Virus record (IMG/VR): IMGVR_UViG_3300020440_000033 | Coordinates: 1-40,220 of that record | Source of the DNA: a virus | Lineage: Duplodnaviria; Caudoviricetes | Direction: 5' to 3' (one strand) | DNA length: 40,220 bases | Part shown: piece by piece, positions 17,220-39,866 of the stretch | Position numbering within the stretch: the first letter of the stretch is position 1 | Layout of the letters: every line of letters begins with the position of its first letter | Made by a program: the position numbers and the translations under genes | The notes under the pieces: model-generated | What the model was told of the DNA's origin: nothing | The model's input: the letters and a program-made list of their open reading frames with translations, nothing else | Databases searched by the model: none

Positions 17220-17567
17220 ATGCCTGCTGCACCTACCCGCGCTATTGACCGGCTACGCAAAGCCGCCAATTTGGAACCAACCAAGCGCGAAGTTGAGCTG
17301 TCCGATGGCTCGATATTTGAGATGTACGTCAGCCCACTGACGATGGCTGAGCGCGAACGCGCCCAAAAGCAAGCCAAGTCAGACGATGCCTCTGCATTTG
17401 CACTGCAGCTGCTTATCAGCAAGGCCCAAGACGCTAATGGCGCAAAGCTGTTTTCCCCCGGTGAGATCGACATTCTCAAGAATGAGGTCAAGGACAAAGA
17501 TCTGCAGTCCTTGATGCTGGCGATTCTGGACGACGGCAACGACGAACCAATGGACCCAAAAGCCTAG
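17220..17567 (+). CDS. tail assembly chaperone (gpG-like)
   Basis: Between tube and tape measure genes; ends in the slippery heptamer C_CCA_AAA (17555-17561). Confidence 0.8.
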   Translation: MPAAPTRAIDRLRKAANLEPTKREVELSDGSIFEMYVSPLTMAERERAQKQAKSDDASAFALQLLISKAQDANGAKLFSPGEIDILKNEVKDKDLQSLMLAILDDGNDEPMDPKA

Positions 17568-17752
17568 TAGCGGATCTTCGCAAGGACAACTGGCTCATGC
17601 TTCAGTTTGGCGTTGCCAAGGAACTGGGCATGAGCTTGTCTGAAGTCCGCACCACCATGACGCCCGAGGAACTGATTGCCTGGAGCGCCTACTTCCAGAT
17701 CCTGAACGAGGACCAAGAAAAGCAAGTGAAAAAGGCGCGTCATAAACGCTAG
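17555..17752 (+). CDS. -1 frame extension giving the gpGT-like chaperone
   Basis: -1 frame reads ...KSLVADLRKDNWLMLQFGVAKELGMSLSEVRTTMTPEELIAWSAYFQILNE...KR*, a typical gpT pattern. Confidence 0.8.
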   Translation, partial: PKSLVADLRKDNWLMLQFGVAKELGMSLSEVRTTMTPEELIAWSAYFQILNEDQEKQVKKARHKR

Positions 17753-33170: not shown

Positions 33171-33509
33171 ATGGCCGTTTCGCCTGGAATCTATAACATC
33201 AGCTTGCAGCGTCGTGCTGACTACTACGTCACGCTGCAGTTCAAAGATTCTACTGTAGCGGCCATTGATCTCACCGGCTGGACAGTAGCCGCACAGGTGT
33301 GGAATAAAAACCGCACTACCAAATATGCAGATTTTGCTGTTGACTACACCGACCGTGTAGCTGGAACGGTTTCGATCAGCCTTACGGACGCCCAAACTGA
33401 AGCATTCCCCGATGAAGTCTATTACGACGTACTGCTGACAAATCCAAGCGGCTTGAAAGAGTATTATCTTGAGGGTATTATTTTTGTTTCGCAGGGGTAC
33501 ACAGCATGA
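33171..33509 (+). CDS. Ig-like / BppU-like virion protein
   Basis: IDLTGWTVAAQV, GTVSISLT..QT, YYDVLL and YYLEG motifs. Confidence 0.7.
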   Translation: MAVSPGIYNISLQRRADYYVTLQFKDSTVAAIDLTGWTVAAQVWNKNRTTKYADFAVDYTDRVAGTVSISLTDAQTEAFPDEVYYDVLLTNPSGLKEYYLEGIIFVSQGYTA

Positions 33510-33661
33510 CCGCAACACGAAATACCGTAGTTGTTTCAGACGATGGCGCAACAGTCACGATCCAGACTGGAGACGTATCCCAGGGCACTTTTGACGCATT
33601 AGTGGCGCGAGTGGAGCAGCTGGAAGCTGTTGATTACCTTGTCTTGCAGGACGGCAACTGA
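33506..33661 (+). CDS. 51-aa hypothetical (MTATRNTVVVSDDG...), absent from the ORF track
   Basis: ATGA overlap with the upstream gene; stop at 33659-33661. Confidence 0.55.
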   Translation: MTATRNTVVVSDDGATVTIQTGDVSQGTFDALVARVEQLEAVDYLVLQDGN

Positions 33662-33693
33662 GTTAAAGTGAAGCGTAGGCCGCTGCAGGCACC

Positions 33694-33939
33694 GTGATCG
33701 AAATCTACGCTGCGATTCTCGGTGCCTCTATCGGCATTGCTGGTATGTCTGTCTCGGGCTTTACGAGGCGCACCAGCGAATCACGCGAAGCTGTGATCCG
33801 TCTCACTGCGGCGGTCGAATCGATCGCTGGCAAGCTCGAAGAGCTGCACCAAGACATGAAAGCAGACCGCAAAGAAATTTATACCCGCCTTAATGCACAC
33901 GGCGAAAGAATTACTGTATTGGAAAACAAGTCACGCTAG
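33694..33939 (+). CDS. membrane-anchored coiled-coil lysis-cassette protein
   Basis: N-terminal TM segment (IYAAILGASIGIAGM) plus coiled coil ending RITVLE. Confidence 0.65.
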   Translation: MIEIYAAILGASIGIAGMSVSGFTRRTSESREAVIRLTAAVESIAGKLEELHQDMKADRKEIYTRLNAHGERITVLENKSR

Positions 33940-33966
33940 GATTTGTGTAAGAGTTAAAGCCTTTCG

Positions 33967-34116
33967 ATGAACATCGAGCAAATCCTATCTCACCCTGCTT
34001 TTTGGGTTGTGGTTGCCGCAGCATCTGAGCTGATCGGCATGTCAAAACTTAAGGACAACAGCGTGATCCAGCTTGTCTTCCACGCACTCCGCAGCCTGAA
34101 GGCAAAAAAGGACTGA
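33967..34116 (+). CDS. 49-aa holin-like membrane peptide, absent from the ORF track
   Basis: MNIEQILSHPAFWVVVAAASELIGMSKLKDNSVIQLVFHALRSLKAKKD; upstream of the endolysin. Confidence 0.7.
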   Translation: MNIEQILSHPAFWVVVAAASELIGMSKLKDNSVIQLVFHALRSLKAKKD

Positions 34117-34349
34117 TCCCTGCTGATGGCCGTTGGCTATTCCGCTTCAGCACCCGTTCTAGTTGGAACGAGGTGCAGCGTGCGATCCAGCGCCGTAAGT
34201 TCGAGGCGACCCTGAAGCCCCGCTTGGATCGTGCCATCGACGATTGGCACAAAACCCAGCCACCGACGACCCCGCCGCCAGTGCGGCTTGATGACCTTCA
34301 CATCCGCGCACATTGGCTCCATGAGCAAGACACCGATCCGACTGATTAG
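34104..34349 (+). CDS. putative -1 frameshift extension of the holin-like peptide
   Basis: A_AAA_AAG at 34104-34110 in the correct phase; the -1 frame stays open to TAG 34347-34349. Confidence 0.6.
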   Translation, partial: KKGLIPADGRWLFRFSTRSSWNEVQRAIQRRKFEATLKPRLDRAIDDWHKTQPPTTPPPVRLDDLHIRAHWLHEQDTDPTD

Positions 34350-35055
34350 CCTCTTCCGCTACTACAAGCGGGAAGGGCACCAAACAGCAGCCATAGAAGA
34401 GCTGGAGCGTGCCATATTGGATGTTGCGCCGGATATTTTTAACCGCGATCAACCGTGGTATGAAACTTGGAGTACGCCAGTTGCAGAAAAGGCACCAGAG
34501 CACTTAATCACGCGAGAACAGATCAGCCTGATCTCAGGCCATGCTGAGCACCTATTTGACGAGTCTTTCATGAATGACTTGAATCGTCTTGTAAAGGCAG
34601 CAGGTATGACAAGCCTGAACCAGCGCAGGATGCTGGTTGCTCAAACCTGCCACGAAACAGCAGGCTACAAGTACATGACAGAAATTGGAGACCGCGCATA
34701 TTTTGCAAGAATGTACGACAACCGCAGTGACCTAGGTAATGGCCCAAGCGACGGGTATAAGTATCGTGGATGCGGCGTAATTCAGCTAACTGGGAAATAT
34801 AATTTCAGCCGTTTTTCTAGATGGATGGAACAGAACGGCATGAAAGATGATCGCATCATGGAGGAAGGAACTGATTACGTTGCAAACAAGTACCCATTTC
34901 TTTGTGCAATCTGCTGGATCGAGGAAAATAACTGGGCAGCTTTGTGCGACCGTGGGGACATCTACGAATGCACACGCAGGCTAAACGGCGGGTACAACGG
35001 GATTGATGACCGTATTTACTACTACAACAGAGCGCAAAAGTACATTGTGAAATAG
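34321..35055 (+). CDS. endolysin, glycoside hydrolase family 19 (chitinase/lysozyme-like)
   Basis: AQTCHETAG, RSDLGN, DGYKYRGCGVIQLTGKYN and TRRLNGGYNGIDDR motifs; ATG 34321. Confidence 0.9.
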   Translation: MSKTPIRLISLFRYYKREGHQTAAIEELERAILDVAPDIFNRDQPWYETWSTPVAEKAPEHLITREQISLISGHAEHLFDESFMNDLNRLVKAAGMTSLNQRRMLVAQTCHETAGYKYMTEIGDRAYFARMYDNRSDLGNGPSDGYKYRGCGVIQLTGKYNFSRFSRWMEQNGMKDDRIMEEGTDYVANKYPFLCAICWIEENNWAALCDRGDIYECTRRLNGGYNGIDDRIYYYNRAQKYIVK

Positions 35056-35115
35056 TTAAGTTCGCTACCATATAAGCAGCCGCAAGTCAAGAACCTTGAT
35101 GTTGCATGGCGCGGG

Positions 35116-35430
35116 GTGGTAGTGGATCACCAGATTGACGAGACCGAACTCGTCCCACGGAAAAAAGCAAAGATCCGCTTCCGTGACCGTATTTTGAACG
35201 AGTGGAATTACTGCTGCGCTTATTGCGCTGAACCATTAGGTAAGAATGCCACCCTTGACCACGTAATACCAAAGTGGAAAGGCGGCTTGACAGAAAAGGG
35301 AAACTTAGTGGGCTGCTGCTTTTCCTGCAATAGCCACAAATCAGGCCACGACTGGCGCGAGTGGTTCAGAAACAGAACCTATTGGACCGAAGCCCGTGAA
35401 GCCCGCATATCGGAATGGATGGAACAGTAA
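35116..35430 (+). CDS. HNH endonuclease
   Basis: CAYC...TLDHVIPKWKGG...NLVGCCFSCNSHK. Confidence 0.9.
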   Translation: MVVDHQIDETELVPRKKAKIRFRDRILNEWNYCCAYCAEPLGKNATLDHVIPKWKGGLTEKGNLVGCCFSCNSHKSGHDWREWFRNRTYWTEAREARISEWMEQ

Positions 35431-35555
35431 ATAGCTTCAGCAACATTTACAGCACGATAAAGTCCATGTATCTCTATACACATGCCACCGCCGACTGTGC
35501 ATACACGGTAAAATCCCCCGCCAATGGGCTCAACCGGAACTGTCGGCCTGTTCAT
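35379..35555 (-). CDS. small hypothetical protein
   Basis: MNRPTVPVEPIGGGFYRVC...; overlaps the thyX end and, convergently, the HNH end. Confidence 0.35.
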   Translation of the reverse strand: MNRPTVPVEPIGGGFYRVCTVGGGMCIEIHGLYRAVNVAEAIYCSIHSDMRASRASVQ

Positions 35556-36183
35556 CCCCAAAAAAGACGCCCGCAATGACAGGAAAGCTCAATCTAAATA
35601 TACGCTGGCACGCCAAGGCAACCTGTCTGTGCTCTAGTTGTGTGTCTGGGTTTGTACGCAATTTGATGTAATGGATCCAACTACGGAGTGTACCAGTCAT
35701 ATACATCGACGTAGGAGTACACATCGGCAGGATGCGCCGAGCGGTTTCTTTGGCAACGCCACATTCGAGTAACGATTCATAAAAAAGAAAAGCATCAGCC
35801 ATGATGCGAGCAGCACGCGCTTGAAAGTCTTCCTGGTGGGACGGGTGGATGTCATCGATGCTGTTTTGTCTGTTTTCGTAGTCCTGCCTCCGAAACCATG
35901 GAGTCTCCGCACGTTGAGTTTTGCTGTACCTAGTGGAAAACTCTTGGAAAGAGAAAGACCTATGCCTCAAGATCTGGGCAGCAATATCGCGCTCTGTGTC
36001 GATTTTGACGCACATACTGGCCATTTCAAAAGGAGACCAGTGCTCGTGCTTAACCAAGTAGCGGATAAGCCCTGGTCCGGTCTCCCAATTGTCCTCATTG
36101 CTTGGGTTACTAACCCGCGCCATCCGCACTATTAGTCTTTCGGCGTCAGGGGTTGCCCAAACCAATTCAACCGAATGGTTCAC
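35530..36183 (-). CDS. thyX: FAD-dependent thymidylate synthase
   Basis: ARVS, HWSPFE, QILRHRSFSFQEFSTRY (RHRx7S), KETARRILP and QLEH motifs. Confidence 0.95.
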   Translation of the reverse strand: MNHSVELVWATPDAERLIVRMARVSNPSNEDNWETGPGLIRYLVKHEHWSPFEMASMCVKIDTERDIAAQILRHRSFSFQEFSTRYSKTQRAETPWFRRQDYENRQNSIDDIHPSHQEDFQARAARIMADAFLFYESLLECGVAKETARRILPMCTPTSMYMTGTLRSWIHYIKLRTNPDTQLEHRQVALACQRIFRLSFPVIAGVFFGDEQADSSG

Positions 36184-36184
36184 A

Positions 36185-37048
36185 TCAACAAAGCTCTTTA
36201 GTTTTATATGCTAGCGACCTCAGCCTGTTTAAGGCTCTTTCAGCCCGCTGCCTGGCCCGTTCCCGAGATATACCTAACTCTTTGGAAATCTGCATATAAG
36301 TTTTAGGTGGAGATCCATTTAACCCATAAAAGCCCACAATGATAACATGGTCAACTGGATCAAGCTGATGTAAGTATTTATCCAAGAAATCACCATCAAA
36401 TATGGTATCTATATTGTTCATGCCATGCTCCCCGTCAGTAATAAGATCAATAAGCGCGGTTGATTCACCGTCTGAATCATTGCCACCGCTGCTATCTAAA
36501 CTGGCGCAGTCATTACTGTGAATCAGGTATTCCTGTAACCGCTGAGGTTTTACGTTACAGTAATCAGCACACTCTTCAAGCGAGGGCGGTCTACCATTTC
36601 TAGCGTCAAACTCAACAACCCAACCTCTTAATTTTGATAATACTTCTATTGCCTGGGTCGGAAGTCTAATTACACGATCGTGGTAACTTAAATGACGCGA
36701 AATAGCCTGACGAATCCACCAGTACACATAAGTTGACAAAGCGTACCCACGTTCTGGATCGAACTTTTTAATACCATGAGCGAGACCTATATTGCCTTCT
36801 TGCACAATATCAAATAACTCTGTACGTTTTGCCCTTGGAACGTACCGCTTGGCGATAGACACAACTAAGCGAAGATTGCAATTAATCAGCTTGTGATACG
36901 CCCGCGTTCCCTGCTTAATTTGTCTAGGCGTTGGTTCGGGCGAAGAAATCCAAGCCTGTACTTGCCGCGCCAGCATGATTTCTTGCTGTTTGGTCAGCAG
37001 GGGATAACGCAAGATCCCATTGATGTACTGAGTAAAGCCTTCCATCAA
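36185..37048 (-). CDS. sigma70-family RNA polymerase sigma factor (RpoD/group 2-like)
   Basis: Region 1.2 YPLLTKQQEIMLA; 2.1 LINCNLRLVVSIAKRY; 2.2-2.4 DIVQEGNIGL..KFDPERGYALSTYVYWWIRQAI; region 4 ISKELGISRERARQ. Confidence 0.93.
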   Translation of the reverse strand: MMEGFTQYINGILRYPLLTKQQEIMLARQVQAWISSPEPTPRQIKQGTRAYHKLINCNLRLVVSIAKRYVPRAKRTELFDIVQEGNIGLAHGIKKFDPERGYALSTYVYWWIRQAISRHLSYHDRVIRLPTQAIEVLSKLRGWVVEFDARNGRPPSLEECADYCNVKPQRLQEYLIHSNDCASLDSSGGNDSDGESTALIDLITDGEHGMNNIDTIFDGDFLDKYLHQLDPVDHVIIVGFYGLNGSPPKTYMQISKELGISRERARQRAERALNRLRSLAYKTKELC

Positions 37049-37928: not shown

Positions 37929-39866
37929 TTAATGAATTTCAGACCACCGCTTACCAACCTGAGGCTCTGCCAGCGGTGGGACATCCCCAAGCCACTTAGC
38001 TTCGGCGCTCTCCATTATCTGTTTTAGCTGGGCAGCCCAGTAATCTGCCTTAGGCTCACGCACTAGAAGCAAAATTTCATCGTGAACACAAGCGGCCAAC
38101 TTGACCTCATCTTCACCAGCCTCTTCCAAAAGCGACCAGAGGTTACCCAAAGCGCATTTAAGGATGGCCGCACCAGCACCTTGGATCGGCGTGTTACAGC
38201 GCACTGTTAGCCGATTCATATCGCCAGGCAAGTATCGACGCATATCAGAAAGCGGGATCCTGACTTCAGGCCATTTGTCGCCTTTGCTGTCTTCAGCCAA
38301 CTGCGCGTTCTGTGCCTGCCAAGCTTTGACCCCTTGGTACGTGCTTAACCACTGATTACGAATTTCAGTTGCTTCTTCAGTGGTCATAACAATGCCCGAG
38401 GCACCTGCGTAATTACGGAGACCTTTAGCACCCGAGCCATACAGCAGGCCAAAGTTTGCGGACTTTGCAATTTGGCGGGAACACCCAATAGCTTCAGCAG
38501 TGACGCTGTGCAGATCTTCCCCATCCTGGAACGCTTTGATCATGCGTTCATCTTCCGCGATGGCAGCCGCGAGGCGCAGTTCCATCTGACCAAAATCCGA
38601 GTCAACAAGAACCCAACCATCAGGAGCCTCAACGCATTGGCGAAACTCCGAATCACGGGGAATCTGCTGATTGTTCGGCTTAATGCAGGACATGCGACCT
38701 GACTCCGCCCCAAGCTGCAGATAGCTGGCACGTACAAAACCATCGGGGGTCATCTTTTCAAGAATGGACTCTACCATTTGCCTACGCTTTTCAGACCTCT
38801 TCCAAGCCAGGTAGGTTTGAATTACATGATGGTCCGCAGCATATTCTTGCAGCGCGGCGCGTGATGCACTGGGCTTGCCGGTCTTGCTGTCCACAGGAGC
38901 CTCGCCCAGCAGGGCGGTGAACTTCTGCAGCAGCTGTTTTGGACTATTGAGGTTAAACCCAGCCTTGAGCTTTGTCCCGAGTCTTACAGACCCGCTGTCT
39001 TTAGCACGCAAATTAAACTGTTGAGAAGCATTCTCAATTTCTTCAATTTCGGCGTACCACTTTTCGTACATATCGTCGTCATGGCCCATTTGTGTGACCA
39101 GATCTTTAAGCATCTTCAAGCGTCTAATGTTTTTGGGCTCCCTTGGGAGCTTGTGCTCCTTGGGCAGCGCTGCATCCAATTCCAGCAAGAAATCCTTGCT
39201 GTGCATTTCAATGTCGTGCTCATAGTCGCCCTTTAAGTTTTCCAAAGCAACTTTGTTCCAGGGCAGCCCAGTGCGCCACATCTGCGCCATTGCAGGCAAA
39301 GCCCTGCATTCCAGCGCATACGCTCCAGCCAGTCGATGTGTCTGCAGCATCTGATCAAGCCGAATATCAAGTTTCAGCAGCACCTCAACATCCTTAGCGG
39401 CGTAGACCAACTGGTCTCGGTTTAAGACTGGTGCGCTCCAATCAGACCGCTGCTGTTCTTTGTCCAGGTCAATCTTCAGGACTCGCTTTGCGACATTGAC
39501 TAGGCCGTGTTTGACGTTCGGTTTGCCGTTGTGCAGCAGTTTGCTGGCAAGCATGGAACACCTAACTTTGCCCCTTACATAGATGCCGTGTTCCTGCAGC
39601 CAACCCAAGTCAAATACCGCGTTGTGAGCAAGCCAGAAGCGATCCCCGTTAGTAAAAAACAGGCGGAGCTGGTCCCAATCGGCTTCATCAAGCTCAAAAC
39701 AGTCGATGACAACGATGATGCGCCGAGATTCACAGCCAAGCTGGATCAGCCGTAACTTGCCAACCTCAGGCTGTAGCTGGAGCGTTTCCGTATCGAAGGC
39801 AAGGGAAACCGAGGTCGAGATCTCTTTTAGATGCTCGACCCCAAACAGGATCTTGTAATCAGACAT
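37929..39866 (-). CDS. polA: family A DNA polymerase (3'-5' exo plus polymerase)
   Basis: Exo FDTET, HNAVFD, YAAKD; pol motif A DSDFGQMELR, motif B RQIAKSANFGLLYG (Phe at the E. coli 762-equivalent), motif C VHDE. Confidence 0.95.
   Translation of the reverse strand: MSDYKILFGVEHLKEISTSVSLAFDTETLQLQPEVGKLRLIQLGCESRRIIVVIDCFELDEADWDQLRLFFTNGDRFWLAHNAVFDLGWLQEHGIYVRGKVRCSMLASKLLHNGKPNVKHGLVNVAKRVLKIDLDKEQQRSDWSAPVLNRDQLVYAAKDVEVLLKLDIRLDQMLQTHRLAGAYALECRALPAMAQMWRTGLPWNKVALENLKGDYEHDIEMHSKDFLLELDAALPKEHKLPREPKNIRRLKMLKDLVTQMGHDDDMYEKWYAEIEEIENASQQFNLRAKDSGSVRLGTKLKAGFNLNSPKQLLQKFTALLGEAPVDSKTGKPSASRAALQEYAADHHVIQTYLAWKRSEKRRQMVESILEKMTPDGFVRASYLQLGAESGRMSCIKPNNQQIPRDSEFRQCVEAPDGWVLVDSDFGQMELRLAAAIAEDERMIKAFQDGEDLHSVTAEAIGCSRQIAKSANFGLLYGSGAKGLRNYAGASGIVMTTEEATEIRNQWLSTYQGVKAWQAQNAQLAEDSKGDKWPEVRIPLSDMRRYLPGDMNRLTVRCNTPIQGAGAAILKCALGNLWSLLEEAGEDEVKLAACVHDEILLLVREPKADYWAAQLKQIMESAEAKWLGDVPPLAEPQVGKRWSEIH

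What the first reader, a model, noticed from the sequence alone, without database searches (positions are those of the whole stretch)
33967..34349. Candidate programmed -1 frameshift in the lysis cassette: one holin-like gene, two proteins
Seen: a 49-aa membrane peptide ORF (33967-34116) ends ...GCA AAA AAG GAC TGA, putting A_AAA_AAG (34104-34110) in X_XXY_YYZ phase just before the stop. The -1 frame reads KGLIPADGRWLFRFSTRSSWNEVQRAIQRRKFEATLKPRLDRAIDDWHKTQPPTTPPPVRLDDLHIRAHWLHEQDTDPTD* to 34349. It fills the otherwise empty 200-nt gap, overlaps the endolysin start, and has no ATG of its own. A possible hairpin (UGCUGA 34121-34126 / UCAGCA 34147-34152, inner UGGCC/GGCUA) starts 10 nt downstream. 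Known: A_AAA_AAG is the efficient slippery heptamer of E. coli dnaX and IS3-family elements. Phage -1 frameshifts are best known in tail chaperones and capsid genes. Inference: a short (49 aa) and a long (127 aa) form are made at a fixed ratio, e.g. a holin/antiholin pair or a membrane-tethered lysis regulator. I do not know of this being described as a lysis-timing mechanism.
Basis: partly seen in the sequence, partly recalled or inferred. Interest (0 to 1): 0.8.

Follow-up and report, generated by a model that had tools for sequence, protein, structure and literature searches.

The report
Frameshift extends cyanophage lysis-cassette membrane protein
A tiny membrane-protein gene just before the cell-wall-cutting enzyme of this marine cyanophage ends in a slippery sequence that hundreds of related phage sequences keep only together with a conserved second reading frame, so some ribosomes very likely slip back one base and make a longer form, predicted to hold a cyanophage-wide domain of unknown function on a likely holin at a fixed low ratio.

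Summary
Confirmed, and far beyond chance. The window is a Synechococcus siphovirus close to KBS-S-2A. ORF1 (33967-34116, 49 aa) ends A_AAA_AAG in phase; a -1 shift would give 127 aa. Among 426 distinct related loci, 301 have a terminal heptamer plus a homologous -1 extension, 118 have neither and 7 are discordant. The heptamer switches between A_AAA_AAG, C_CCA_AAG and G_GGA_AAG. Synonymous codons break it where the extension is absent. The extension has dN/dS about 0.09, also upstream of its first GTG, and no conserved start. The extension belongs to a cyanophage-wide family. In S-CBS2, S-CRES1 and S-CRES3 it is a separate gene behind an ORF1 homologue (behind a terminator-like hairpin in both S-CRES phages); myoviruses encode it alone with its own hydrophobic N-terminus. 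Best reading: programmed -1 frameshift (about 0.93) giving a likely holin plus a minority anchored accessory form (lysis role about 0.65). Holin and antiholin activity are untested. No report was found in ten literature searches. This scan noted the same frameshift earlier in at least eight other genomes.

The parts
33694..33939 (+). 81-aa gene with an N-terminal hydrophobic segment; phrog_26178 (unknown), weak XhlA/hemolysin-like hits; probable member of the lysis cassette
   Evidence: a homologue lies within 800 nt in 129 of 225 extension loci
33967..34116 (+). ORF1, 49 aa (phrog_22542, unknown): hydrophobic helix 10-25 with an invariant Ser-Glu, amphipathic helix 32-47, basic tail; the short (0-frame) product, likely holin-type
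   Evidence: (pLDDT 87)
34104..34110 (+). Slippery heptamer A_AAA_AAG (Ala46 wobble base, Lys47, Lys48), one codon before the 0-frame stop
34110..34349 (+). -1 frame extension, 79 aa, no start of its own: linker, one predicted 32-residue helix (about 34161-34256), Pro-rich spacer, conserved I-x-A-P-W-type tail; member of a cyanophage-wide family (PHROG 6464/22672/3316, all unknown)
34122..34200 (+).
   Evidence: z -2.78; pairing and covariation above shuffles; RNAalifold finds no consensus
34321..35055 (+). Endolysin, 244 aa (PHROG endolysin/chitinase families) with a conserved N-terminal domain of about 50 aa; its ATG lies 29 nt inside the end of the extension
   Evidence: annotated as endolysin in KBS-S-2A

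Best explanation
Ribosomes translating the 49-residue membrane-protein gene very likely slip back one base at its in-phase A_AAA_AAG, so that most would stop at TGA 34116 and make a likely holin-type peptide while a minority would add the conserved 79-residue -1 extension, giving a 127-residue form predicted to anchor a cyanophage-wide accessory domain in the same membrane assembly at a fixed low ratio. Shown by sequence comparison: site, phase, co-occurrence with the extension, purifying selection, absence of a start. Inferred from established knowledge: tandem slippage of tRNA-Lys(UUU), favoured because most host-family genomes have no CUU isoacceptor. Inferred from context: a lysis role for the short form, and a minority, co-assembling role for the long form. 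Possible side effect, untested: only shifted ribosomes terminate over the endolysin start, so the shift may also feed endolysin translation. My odds: frameshift 0.93; lysis function given the frameshift 0.65.
For: (1) Of 426 distinct ORF1 loci: heptamer and extension 301, heptamer only 6, extension only 1, neither 118. All 302 extension hits are in the -1 frame and open back past the ORF1 stop; none is in frame 0 or +1. Loci retrieved with ORF1 queries only give 213/6/0/118 of 337. (2) The heptamer changes but stays canonical: A_AAA_AAG 213, C_CCA_AAG 79, G_GGA_AAG 8, C_CCA_AAA 1. (3) Synonymous control: ORF1s ending in Phe-Pro-Lys use TTC CCA AAR in 83 of 84 loci with the extension and in 5 of 41 without. 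Terminal Lys-Lys is A_AAA_AAG in 210 of 224, against 1 of 58 in neighbouring long ORFs. (4) dN/dS is 0.090 before the first GTG and 0.083 after it (104 loci, 805 pairs). (5) There is no ATG in the -1 frame upstream of the site in 221 of 221 loci, and a start-type codon at the V23 column in only 50 of 203. The codon overlapping the stop is never ATG and is CTA, GTA or TTA in 81 of 302. (6) The junction is present in 7 of 14 phage records read, siphoviruses and T7-like podoviruses alike, and none annotates it as joined. (7) The host family has a tRNA-Lys(UUU) motif in 151 of 151 genomes and a CUU motif in 24, about 7 of them tRNA-like; Atkins 2016 (PMC5009743, passages) ties the shiftiness of A_AAA_AAG to a single tRNA-Lys. 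(8) An endolysin N-terminal domain follows within 700 nt in 205 of 260 extension loci, and the catalytic type varies. In S-B28 and WH11-B the gene sits between tail fibre and terminase small subunit, the T7 holin position (recalled). (9) S-CBS2, S-CRES1 and S-CRES3 encode the extension family as a separate gene right behind an ORF1 homologue, the two S-CRES phages with a terminator-like hairpin in between. This fits a pair that works together with the second partner in the minority.
Against: There is no direct evidence of frameshifting (no proteomics, profiling or reporter). No conserved stimulator was found: RNAalifold gives no consensus, the excess folding is not confined to the first stem (z -2.1 at 0..+90, but -1.1 to -1.3 further on), and there is no internal Shine-Dalgarno (17% against 47% in a control window). 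ORF1 matches no named holin family or fold, and its hydrophobicity is modest (best 19-residue Kyte-Doolittle mean 1.47; family median 1.74). Stand-alone extension homologues in myoviruses lie mostly among DNA-metabolism genes, not lysis genes (3 of 4 read). 55 of 260 extension loci lack the endolysin domain downstream, and 118 loci do without the extension. Many loci are near-copies, and the ORF1 tree is poorly resolved (11 changes of extension state on 102 rows, 4 starred branches), so the counts overstate independence. L246 keeps the extension without a canonical heptamer.
Confidence: 0.6

Rival explanations
1. The frameshift is real, but the pair is not a holin system. ORF1 is only a membrane anchor or assembly partner, and the extension family does a cyanobacteria-specific membrane job (outer-membrane disruption of a spanin-like kind, thylakoid handling, or something unrelated to lysis).
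For: All phage-record hits of the extension family are cyanophages. S-CREM1 gp30 and the DSL-LC03 homologue have a basic N-terminus plus a strong hydrophobic segment (KD19 about 2.0) ahead of the domain, a type II membrane layout as in inner-membrane spanins; P-HM2, P-RSM6 and S-CREM1 homologues sit outside lysis clusters. The extension is one long helix plus a Pro-rich stretch. No holin family matches.
Against: ORF1 directly precedes endolysins of several catalytic types (30 of 38 and 8 of 16 downstream ORFs scanned). ORF1 and the extension have no Cys and no lipobox-like signal was found in the cassette. The charge distribution of ORF1 (N-terminal net -1.3, C-part +4.1) points to a cytoplasmic C-terminus if there is one membrane span.
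Confidence: 0.2
2. The main output of the shift is translational control: only shifted ribosomes terminate on top of the endolysin start and re-initiate or unmask it, so the slip rate meters endolysin per holin.
For: The endolysin ATG lies -41..-1 nt from the extension stop in 221 of 223 loci, and -21..+7 from the ORF1 stop in 36 of 38 loci without the extension. L355 has lost most of the extension but keeps the heptamer and the -29 overlap; L063 lost both and joins ORF1 to the endolysin by ATGA. Coupling at -38 and -50 is documented for the fr and MS2 lysis genes (PMC12548453, passages). A Shine-Dalgarno at the endolysin start is seen in 10% of extension loci against 50% of 22 no-extension loci.
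Against: The extension protein is under strong purifying selection. Short overlaps are the default in compact genomes. The endolysin start is no more structured than the ORF1 start (p 0.10 and 0.34), and ORF1 starts lack an SD just as often (10%). In T7-like members the next gene is terminase small subunit.
Confidence: 0.12
3. The downstream frame is an ordinary gene with its own start (CTG/TTG/GTG overlapping the stop, or an internal GTG), and the Lys-Lys end is protein-level conservation.
For: S-CBS2 appears to do exactly this (annotated GTG overlapping the stop, no heptamer), and S-CRES1 and S-CRES3 have an ATG. The codon over the stop is CTG in 197 and TTG/GTG in 24 of 302. Gene callers annotate internal starts in S-CBS1 and S-CBS3.
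Against: It is never ATG, and is a non-start codon in 81 of 302; 236 of 301 have no ATG/GTG/TTG before the tenth matched codon. Selection acts on codons before the GTG. The synonymous codon choice tracks the extension. The separately started versions carry their own N-terminal segment and lack the heptamer.
Confidence: 0.05
4. RNA polymerase slips on the A run and adds a base (transcriptional realignment), giving the same fusion.
For: An A6 run is present in 213 loci. One database protein (P0152) shows the fusion in frame with an extra Lys, although it looks like a sequencing indel.
Against: C_CCA_AAG and G_GGA_AAG (87 loci) have no long homopolymer; the sites are always in codon phase with AAG almost always last; the metatranscriptome contig shows no indel (contigs drop rare variants).
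Confidence: 0.02
5. Chance heptamer and chance open frame, or an assembly error.
For: AAAAAAG occurs 16 times in the window.
Confidence: 0.01

Closest known systems
Tail assembly chaperone G/GT -1 frameshift of lambda and other long-tailed phages (Atkins 2016, PMC5009743, passages seen)
   Same: A -1 shift near the end of a short gene gives a majority short and a minority extended product; the heptamer varies while the arrangement is kept; G_GGA_AAG (the lambda site, recalled) occurs here too.
   Different: No sequence relation, and the gene is a membrane peptide beside the endolysin, not between major tail and tape-measure genes. The window has its own chaperone shift at 17555-17561. Also present in podoviruses.
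E. coli dnaX and IS3-family A_AAA_AAG sites (dnaX in PMC5009743 passages; IS3 recalled)
   Same: Identical heptamer; hosts mostly with a single tRNA-Lys(UUU).
   Different: No internal Shine-Dalgarno and no single conserved 3' hairpin; the shift extends the protein rather than truncating it as in dnaX.
Holin/antiholin pairs from one gene, lambda S105/S107 and phage 21 dual start (recalled)
   Same: Two isoforms of a small lysis-cassette membrane protein from one gene at a set ratio.
   Different: Isoforms here would share the N-terminus and differ by a 79-residue C-terminal domain made by recoding; no similarity to known holins; inhibition is untested.
MS2/fr coat-lysis coupling (PMC12548453 passages; the 1982 frameshift claim and the 1987 termination paper seen only as reference titles)
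   Same: A lysis gene start lies some tens of bases upstream of an upstream stop (-29 here; -38 and -50 there).
   Different: ssRNA phage, single-gene lysis, no programmed heptamer and no conserved transframe protein.
PHROG 22542/15106 (ORF1) and PHROG 6464/22672/3316 (extension family), all of unknown function
   Same: Direct family matches.
   Different: The libraries list them as separate hypothetical proteins; the frameshift link is not recorded in the phage records read.

Membership tests
Programmed -1 ribosomal frameshift (tandem slippage) | X_XXY_YYZ heptamer in phase, conserved | tested here: met
   301 of 302 extension loci; synonymous controls
Programmed -1 ribosomal frameshift (tandem slippage) | Coding -1 frame reachable only through the site (no own start) | tested here: met
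   dN/dS 0.09; start surveys
Programmed -1 ribosomal frameshift (tandem slippage) | 3' stimulatory structure | tested here: inconclusive
   Mean z -2.14 over 90 loci, long stem above shuffles, no consensus, short hairpin fails
Programmed -1 ribosomal frameshift (dnaX/IS911 subtype) | Internal Shine-Dalgarno 5' of the site | tested here: not met
   17% of 191 loci against 47% in a control window
Programmed -1 ribosomal frameshift (tandem slippage) | Transframe protein or reporter shift measured | not testable with these tools
   needs MS, ribosome profiling or a reporter
Holin | Small protein with a membrane-spanning segment and a charged C-terminus | tested here: met
   Helical hairpin; KD19 1.47, family median 1.74, 77% of 292 at 1.6 or more; C-part net +4. 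Modest in the window itself.
Holin | Gene adjacent to an endolysin | tested here: met
   205 of 260, 37 of 51 and 19 of 59 loci by class
Holin | Similarity to a characterised holin family | tested here: not met
   Pfam and PHROG scans of 72 members, Atlas, Foldseek
Holin | Timed membrane permeabilisation that releases or activates endolysin | not testable with these tools
   bench test
Holin/antiholin dual-start pair | Isoforms differ at the N-terminus through two starts | tested here: not met
   Isoforms would differ at the C-terminus
Holin/antiholin dual-start pair | Long form delays lysis | not testable with these tools
   bench test
Spanin (Rz/Rz1 or unimolecular) | Outer-membrane lipoprotein signal (lipobox Cys) | tested here: not met
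   No Cys in ORF1 or the extension; Cys in 8 of 292 extensions; no lipobox-like hit on the + strand of 33401-35500
Spanin (Rz/Rz1 or unimolecular) | Periplasmic helical domain on an inner-membrane anchor | tested here: inconclusive
   Helix predicted; ORF1 charges suggest a cytoplasmic tail, two myovirus homologues suggest a type II anchor
Tail assembly chaperone G/GT | Position between major tail and tape-measure genes, and homology | tested here: not met
   The window's chaperone is 17220-17752

The most novel reading that the evidence does not exclude
Cyanophages share a two-part membrane lysis module (a 49-aa pore former plus a cyanobacteria-specific accessory domain) whose ratio has been set in three convergent ways: a programmed -1 frameshift in most small sipho- and podoviruses, a leaky terminator or start-stop coupling between two genes in S-CRES- and S-CBS2-type phages, and a self-anchored gene in myoviruses. 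In the frameshift form the same slip also delivers ribosomes to the endolysin start, making ribosomal recoding the lysis clock.
Probability: 0.2. Interest if true: 0.85.

Novelty: new variant of a known kind. Interest (0 to 1): 0.64.

Why it matters
The phage frameshift passages I read in Atkins 2016 concern tail chaperones and head or tail proteins. This is a second, widespread frameshift in the same genomes, in the lysis cassette of phages that kill Synechococcus, a major ocean primary producer. It nominates a holin candidate and an accessory family for phages whose lysis genes other than the endolysin are annotated as hypothetical in the records read. It explains a 200-nt annotation gap and several mis-started genes in GenBank. 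It is directly testable in cultured phage-host pairs (KBS-S-2A on WH7803, S-CBS1, S-CBS3, S-B28). Natural alleles (extension lost, shortened, fused to the endolysin, or split off as its own gene) provide ready comparisons.

Tried and rejected
A single consensus stimulator: none. Internal SD: none. GTG of V23 as a start: not conserved, GTA in KBS-S-2A. Natural in-frame ORF1-extension fusions: the longer-protein search gave 3 hits, whose tails match other frames or chimeras; of the proteins held, only P0152 and P0147 carry both parts, and both look like indel errors, so they are not used as evidence. Named families for ORF1 or the extension: none in Pfam, PHROG, the ESM Atlas or Foldseek/BFVD. 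Masked endolysin start: not seen. The ORF1 tree was too poorly resolved to count origins or losses. The script stopped before the ORF1 dN/dS and the codon-model estimate, so these are missing. The seven genome-contig hits were short contigs in six MAGs and one Rhodobacteraceae assembly, probably binned phage DNA, and say nothing on hosts. Complex prediction of the extension with the endolysin N-terminal domain was not available, so binding is neither claimed nor excluded. The one RNA run is contigs only and cannot show strand, level or rare slippage. Literature searches were seen as listings only, apart from the five papers named in the full report.

Full report
Setting. The window is a 40-kb virus record with terminase, capsid, tail and replication genes. 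Its closest record is cyanophage KBS-S-2A of Synechococcus WH7803 (ORF1 88%, extension 80% identical). The region reads tail fibre genes, an 81-aa gene (33694-33939), ORF1 (33967-34116), a 204-nt gap, endolysin (34321-35055), HNH.

Observation. ORF1 ends GCA AAA AAG GAC TGA, with A_AAA_AAG at 34104-34110 in phase. The -1 frame is open to 34349, has no ATG and overlaps the endolysin start by 29 nt; a tandem slip would give 127 aa. Contigs from four runs show no indel. In one genome this is weak, since the window has 16 such heptamers.

Conservation. I collected loci with ORF1 queries (isolates in 15-28) and with extension queries. Of 629 loci, 625 had an ORF1 hit; 14 were dropped as cut off, duplicates and rows without the Ser-Glu anchor were removed, and 426 remained. 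301 have a terminal in-phase heptamer and a -1 extension matching a profile of 82 extensions, 6 have the heptamer only, 1 the extension only, and 118 neither (57 short, 61 longer in-frame forms of the P60/S-CBP type). The profile was built from heptamer-bearing loci, but ORF1-only retrieval gives the same split, 213/6/0/118 of 337. All 302 extension hits are in frame -1. The heptamer is A_AAA_AAG (213), C_CCA_AAG (79), G_GGA_AAG (8) or C_CCA_AAA (1). The cleanest control is synonymous: proteins ending Phe-Pro-Lys use TTC CCA AAR in 83 of 84 loci with the extension and in 5 of 41 without; terminal Lys-Lys is A_AAA_AAG in 210 of 224, against 1 of 58 in neighbouring long ORFs (earlier set). Many loci are close relatives, and the 42-column tree cannot count events, so these numbers are not independent trials. 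Among 14 phage records read, KBS-S-2A, S-CBS1, S-CBS3, S-EIV1 and the T7-like S-B28, WH11-B and 7B11-B carry the junction; S37-C6 and six long-form podoviruses do not. None annotates a join.

The extension is a protein without a start. dN/dS is 0.090 for the 19 codons before the first GTG and 0.083 for the next 30 (104 loci, 805 pairs; the two other frames hold stops in 16 and 92, and in 102 and 101, of 104). No locus of 221 has an ATG in the -1 frame upstream of the site, and the V23 column is GTG/TTG/ATG in 50 of 203. The codon that overlaps the ORF1 stop always reads Leu or Val, never ATG, and is a non-start codon in 81 of 302. AlphaFold gives one 32-residue helix in an otherwise extended chain (pLDDT 72, pTM 0.35).

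Shift machinery. Atkins 2016 (PMC5009743; passages from the first 300,000 of 449,034 characters) states that A_AAA_AAG is especially shift-prone in E. coli and links this to a single tRNA-Lys. In 151 genomes of the family of a Prochlorococcaceae MAG, a UUU-type motif is in all, and a CUU-type motif in 24, mostly chance; about 7 look like tRNAs, and ARAGORN confirmed 2 of the 15 such loci fetched. The actual host of the window is inferred from KBS-S-2A. A longer stem, 34122-34200 (z -2.78), pairs and covaries above shuffles (0 of 500), but it was derived from one member, conserved codons can mimic it, and RNAalifold finds no consensus. Across 90 loci the 90 nt after the site fold better than shuffles (mean z -2.14; upstream -0.20; further downstream -1.1 to -1.3), which suggests lineage-specific stems. 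There is no internal SD.

What the proteins do. ORF1 models as a helical hairpin with an acidic N-terminus, one moderately hydrophobic helix holding an invariant Ser-Glu, an amphipathic helix and a basic tail. No named family or fold matches; the profile finds 296 cluster representatives without names. The neighbourhood is lysis: an endolysin N-terminal domain follows in 205 of 260 extension loci. Of 61 downstream ORFs picked, I scanned 54 (four mis-picked and three near-duplicate ORFs left out; 12 loci had none), and 30 of 38 and 8 of 16 were endolysins of several catalytic types. In S-B28 and WH11-B the gene lies just before terminase small subunit, where T7 has its holin (recalled). 'Holin' is therefore a works-like reading, not a membership.

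The extension as a family. A search with the S-CBS2 homologue finds 31 records, all cyanophages, many weakly. In S-CBS2 (gp049/gp048), S-CRES1 (gp105/gp104) and S-CRES3 (gp116/gp115), an ORF1 homologue (E 9e-8, 4e-11, 4e-7) is followed by a separately started extension homologue (E 1e-9, 2e-9, 0.012), with no heptamer and with an added amphipathic N-terminus. In both S-CRES phages a 6-bp all-GC hairpin with a U-tract lies between the genes; none lies there in the window. In S-CBS2 the -1 frame is open across the ORF1 end, so a non-canonical shift is not excluded. P-SS2 gp054/gp055 show the same order, weakly (E 2.5e-4 and 0.46). Myoviruses S-CREM1, DSL-LC03, P-HM2 and P-RSM6 encode it alone (E 9e-7, 8e-7, 2e-5, 0.017), the first two with a strong N-terminal hydrophobic segment; only DSL-LC03 has a lysozyme-annotated neighbour, and the S-CBP2 hit is weak (E 0.31). 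So the domain nearly always comes with a membrane-seeking N-terminus, and in small phages it travels with ORF1. I infer that the frameshift supplies both the anchor and a low ratio. This also keeps a non-holin or spanin-like role open.

Coupling. The endolysin ATG sits -41..-1 nt from the extension stop in 221 of 223 loci, and -21..+7 from the ORF1 stop in 36 of 38 loci without the extension. L355 keeps the heptamer and the overlap with a 21-aa remnant, L063 couples ORF1 to the endolysin by ATGA, and L386 has the extension in frame with the endolysin. Spacings of -38 and -50 support coupling in fr and MS2 (PMC12548453, passages). Against this, the start is not masked and the protein is selected, so I rank it as a side effect.

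Prior art. Ten searches (listings) showed no paper on this by title or abstract start. 'Holin' and 'cyanophage' occur 0 times in the held text of PMC5009743 and in PMC10885494 (passages). 'Frameshift' and 'holin' occur 0 times in PMC6157547 (passages). The KBS2A genome note (PMC3751600, whole text) does not mention it. Huang et al. 2012 on the S-CBS genomes was seen only as a reference, subscription papers are largely missing, and I opened no supplements; PRFect-type prediction tables could list the site. Earlier notes of this scan report the same frameshift in at least eight other genomes; they are not independent support. The few lines shown of them do not mention the split-gene and stand-alone forms.

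Verdict. Real and conserved; a programmed -1 frameshift is very likely (0.93), and a lysis-cassette role likely (0.65). It is a new variant of a known recoding mechanism in a gene class where I found no report. Interest 0.64.

Noticed in passing
window 17220-17752 (+), heptamer 17555-17561: Canonical tail assembly chaperone frameshift: the chaperone ORF ends with C_CCA_AAA in phase and the -1 frame runs 65 codons to the tape-measure gene, matching tail PHROGs. The phage thus carries two -1 sites.
   Followed up: partly
L650:1159-1649, L652:1204-1693, L653:1198-1641 (S-CBS2, S-CRES1, S-CRES3): ORF1 and extension homologues as two separate genes; terminator-like hairpin between them in the S-CRES phages. 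The 'Rob transcription factor', 'spike glycoprotein' and 'fibritin' labels nearby look doubtful.
   Followed up: partly
L656:1282-1701, L659:1279-1671 (S-CREM1 gp30, DSL-LC03): Stand-alone extension-family proteins with a basic N-terminus, a hydrophobic segment ending near a conserved Cys and further Cys in the tail; the DSL-LC03 copy follows a gene annotated 'tail tip lysozyme'. Worth testing as lipoprotein or spanin-like.
   Followed up: no
L386, junction near 1587: The -1 extension runs in frame into the endolysin (324 aa), so a shift would give a membrane-tethered endolysin; a single locus, possibly a mutation or error.
   Followed up: partly
L246: Full extension in the -1 frame but TTC CCG AAG AAG at the site, one change away from C_CCA_AAG; the only such case in 302.
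   Followed up: no
L355, L538, L063: Degenerate alleles: 21-aa and about 27-aa -1 remnants that still overlap the endolysin start, and complete loss with ATGA coupling.
   Followed up: partly
window 34333-34473: An N-terminal domain of about 50 aa (invariant His-Gln, two Trp) shared by endolysins with different catalytic domains; no Pfam match for the window's endolysin.
   Followed up: partly
L168-L173, L257-L336 (P60, S-CBP1/3/4, S-SRP01, DSL-LC07 and relatives): A separate clade of ORF1 homologues with an in-frame charged C-terminal helix and no heptamer (61 distinct loci; 98% support).
   Followed up: partly
L631, L632 (G067, G034): A minority of host-family genomes carry tRNA-Lys(CUU), in G034 next to the UUU gene; such hosts might lower the shift rate.
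   Followed up: no
window 36185-37048 (-), 35530-36183 (-), 37929-39866 (-): Phage-encoded RpoD-like sigma factor, ThyX-like and DNA polymerase I-like ORFs (read from translations; labels recalled, sigma factor annotated in KBS-S-2A).
   Followed up: no
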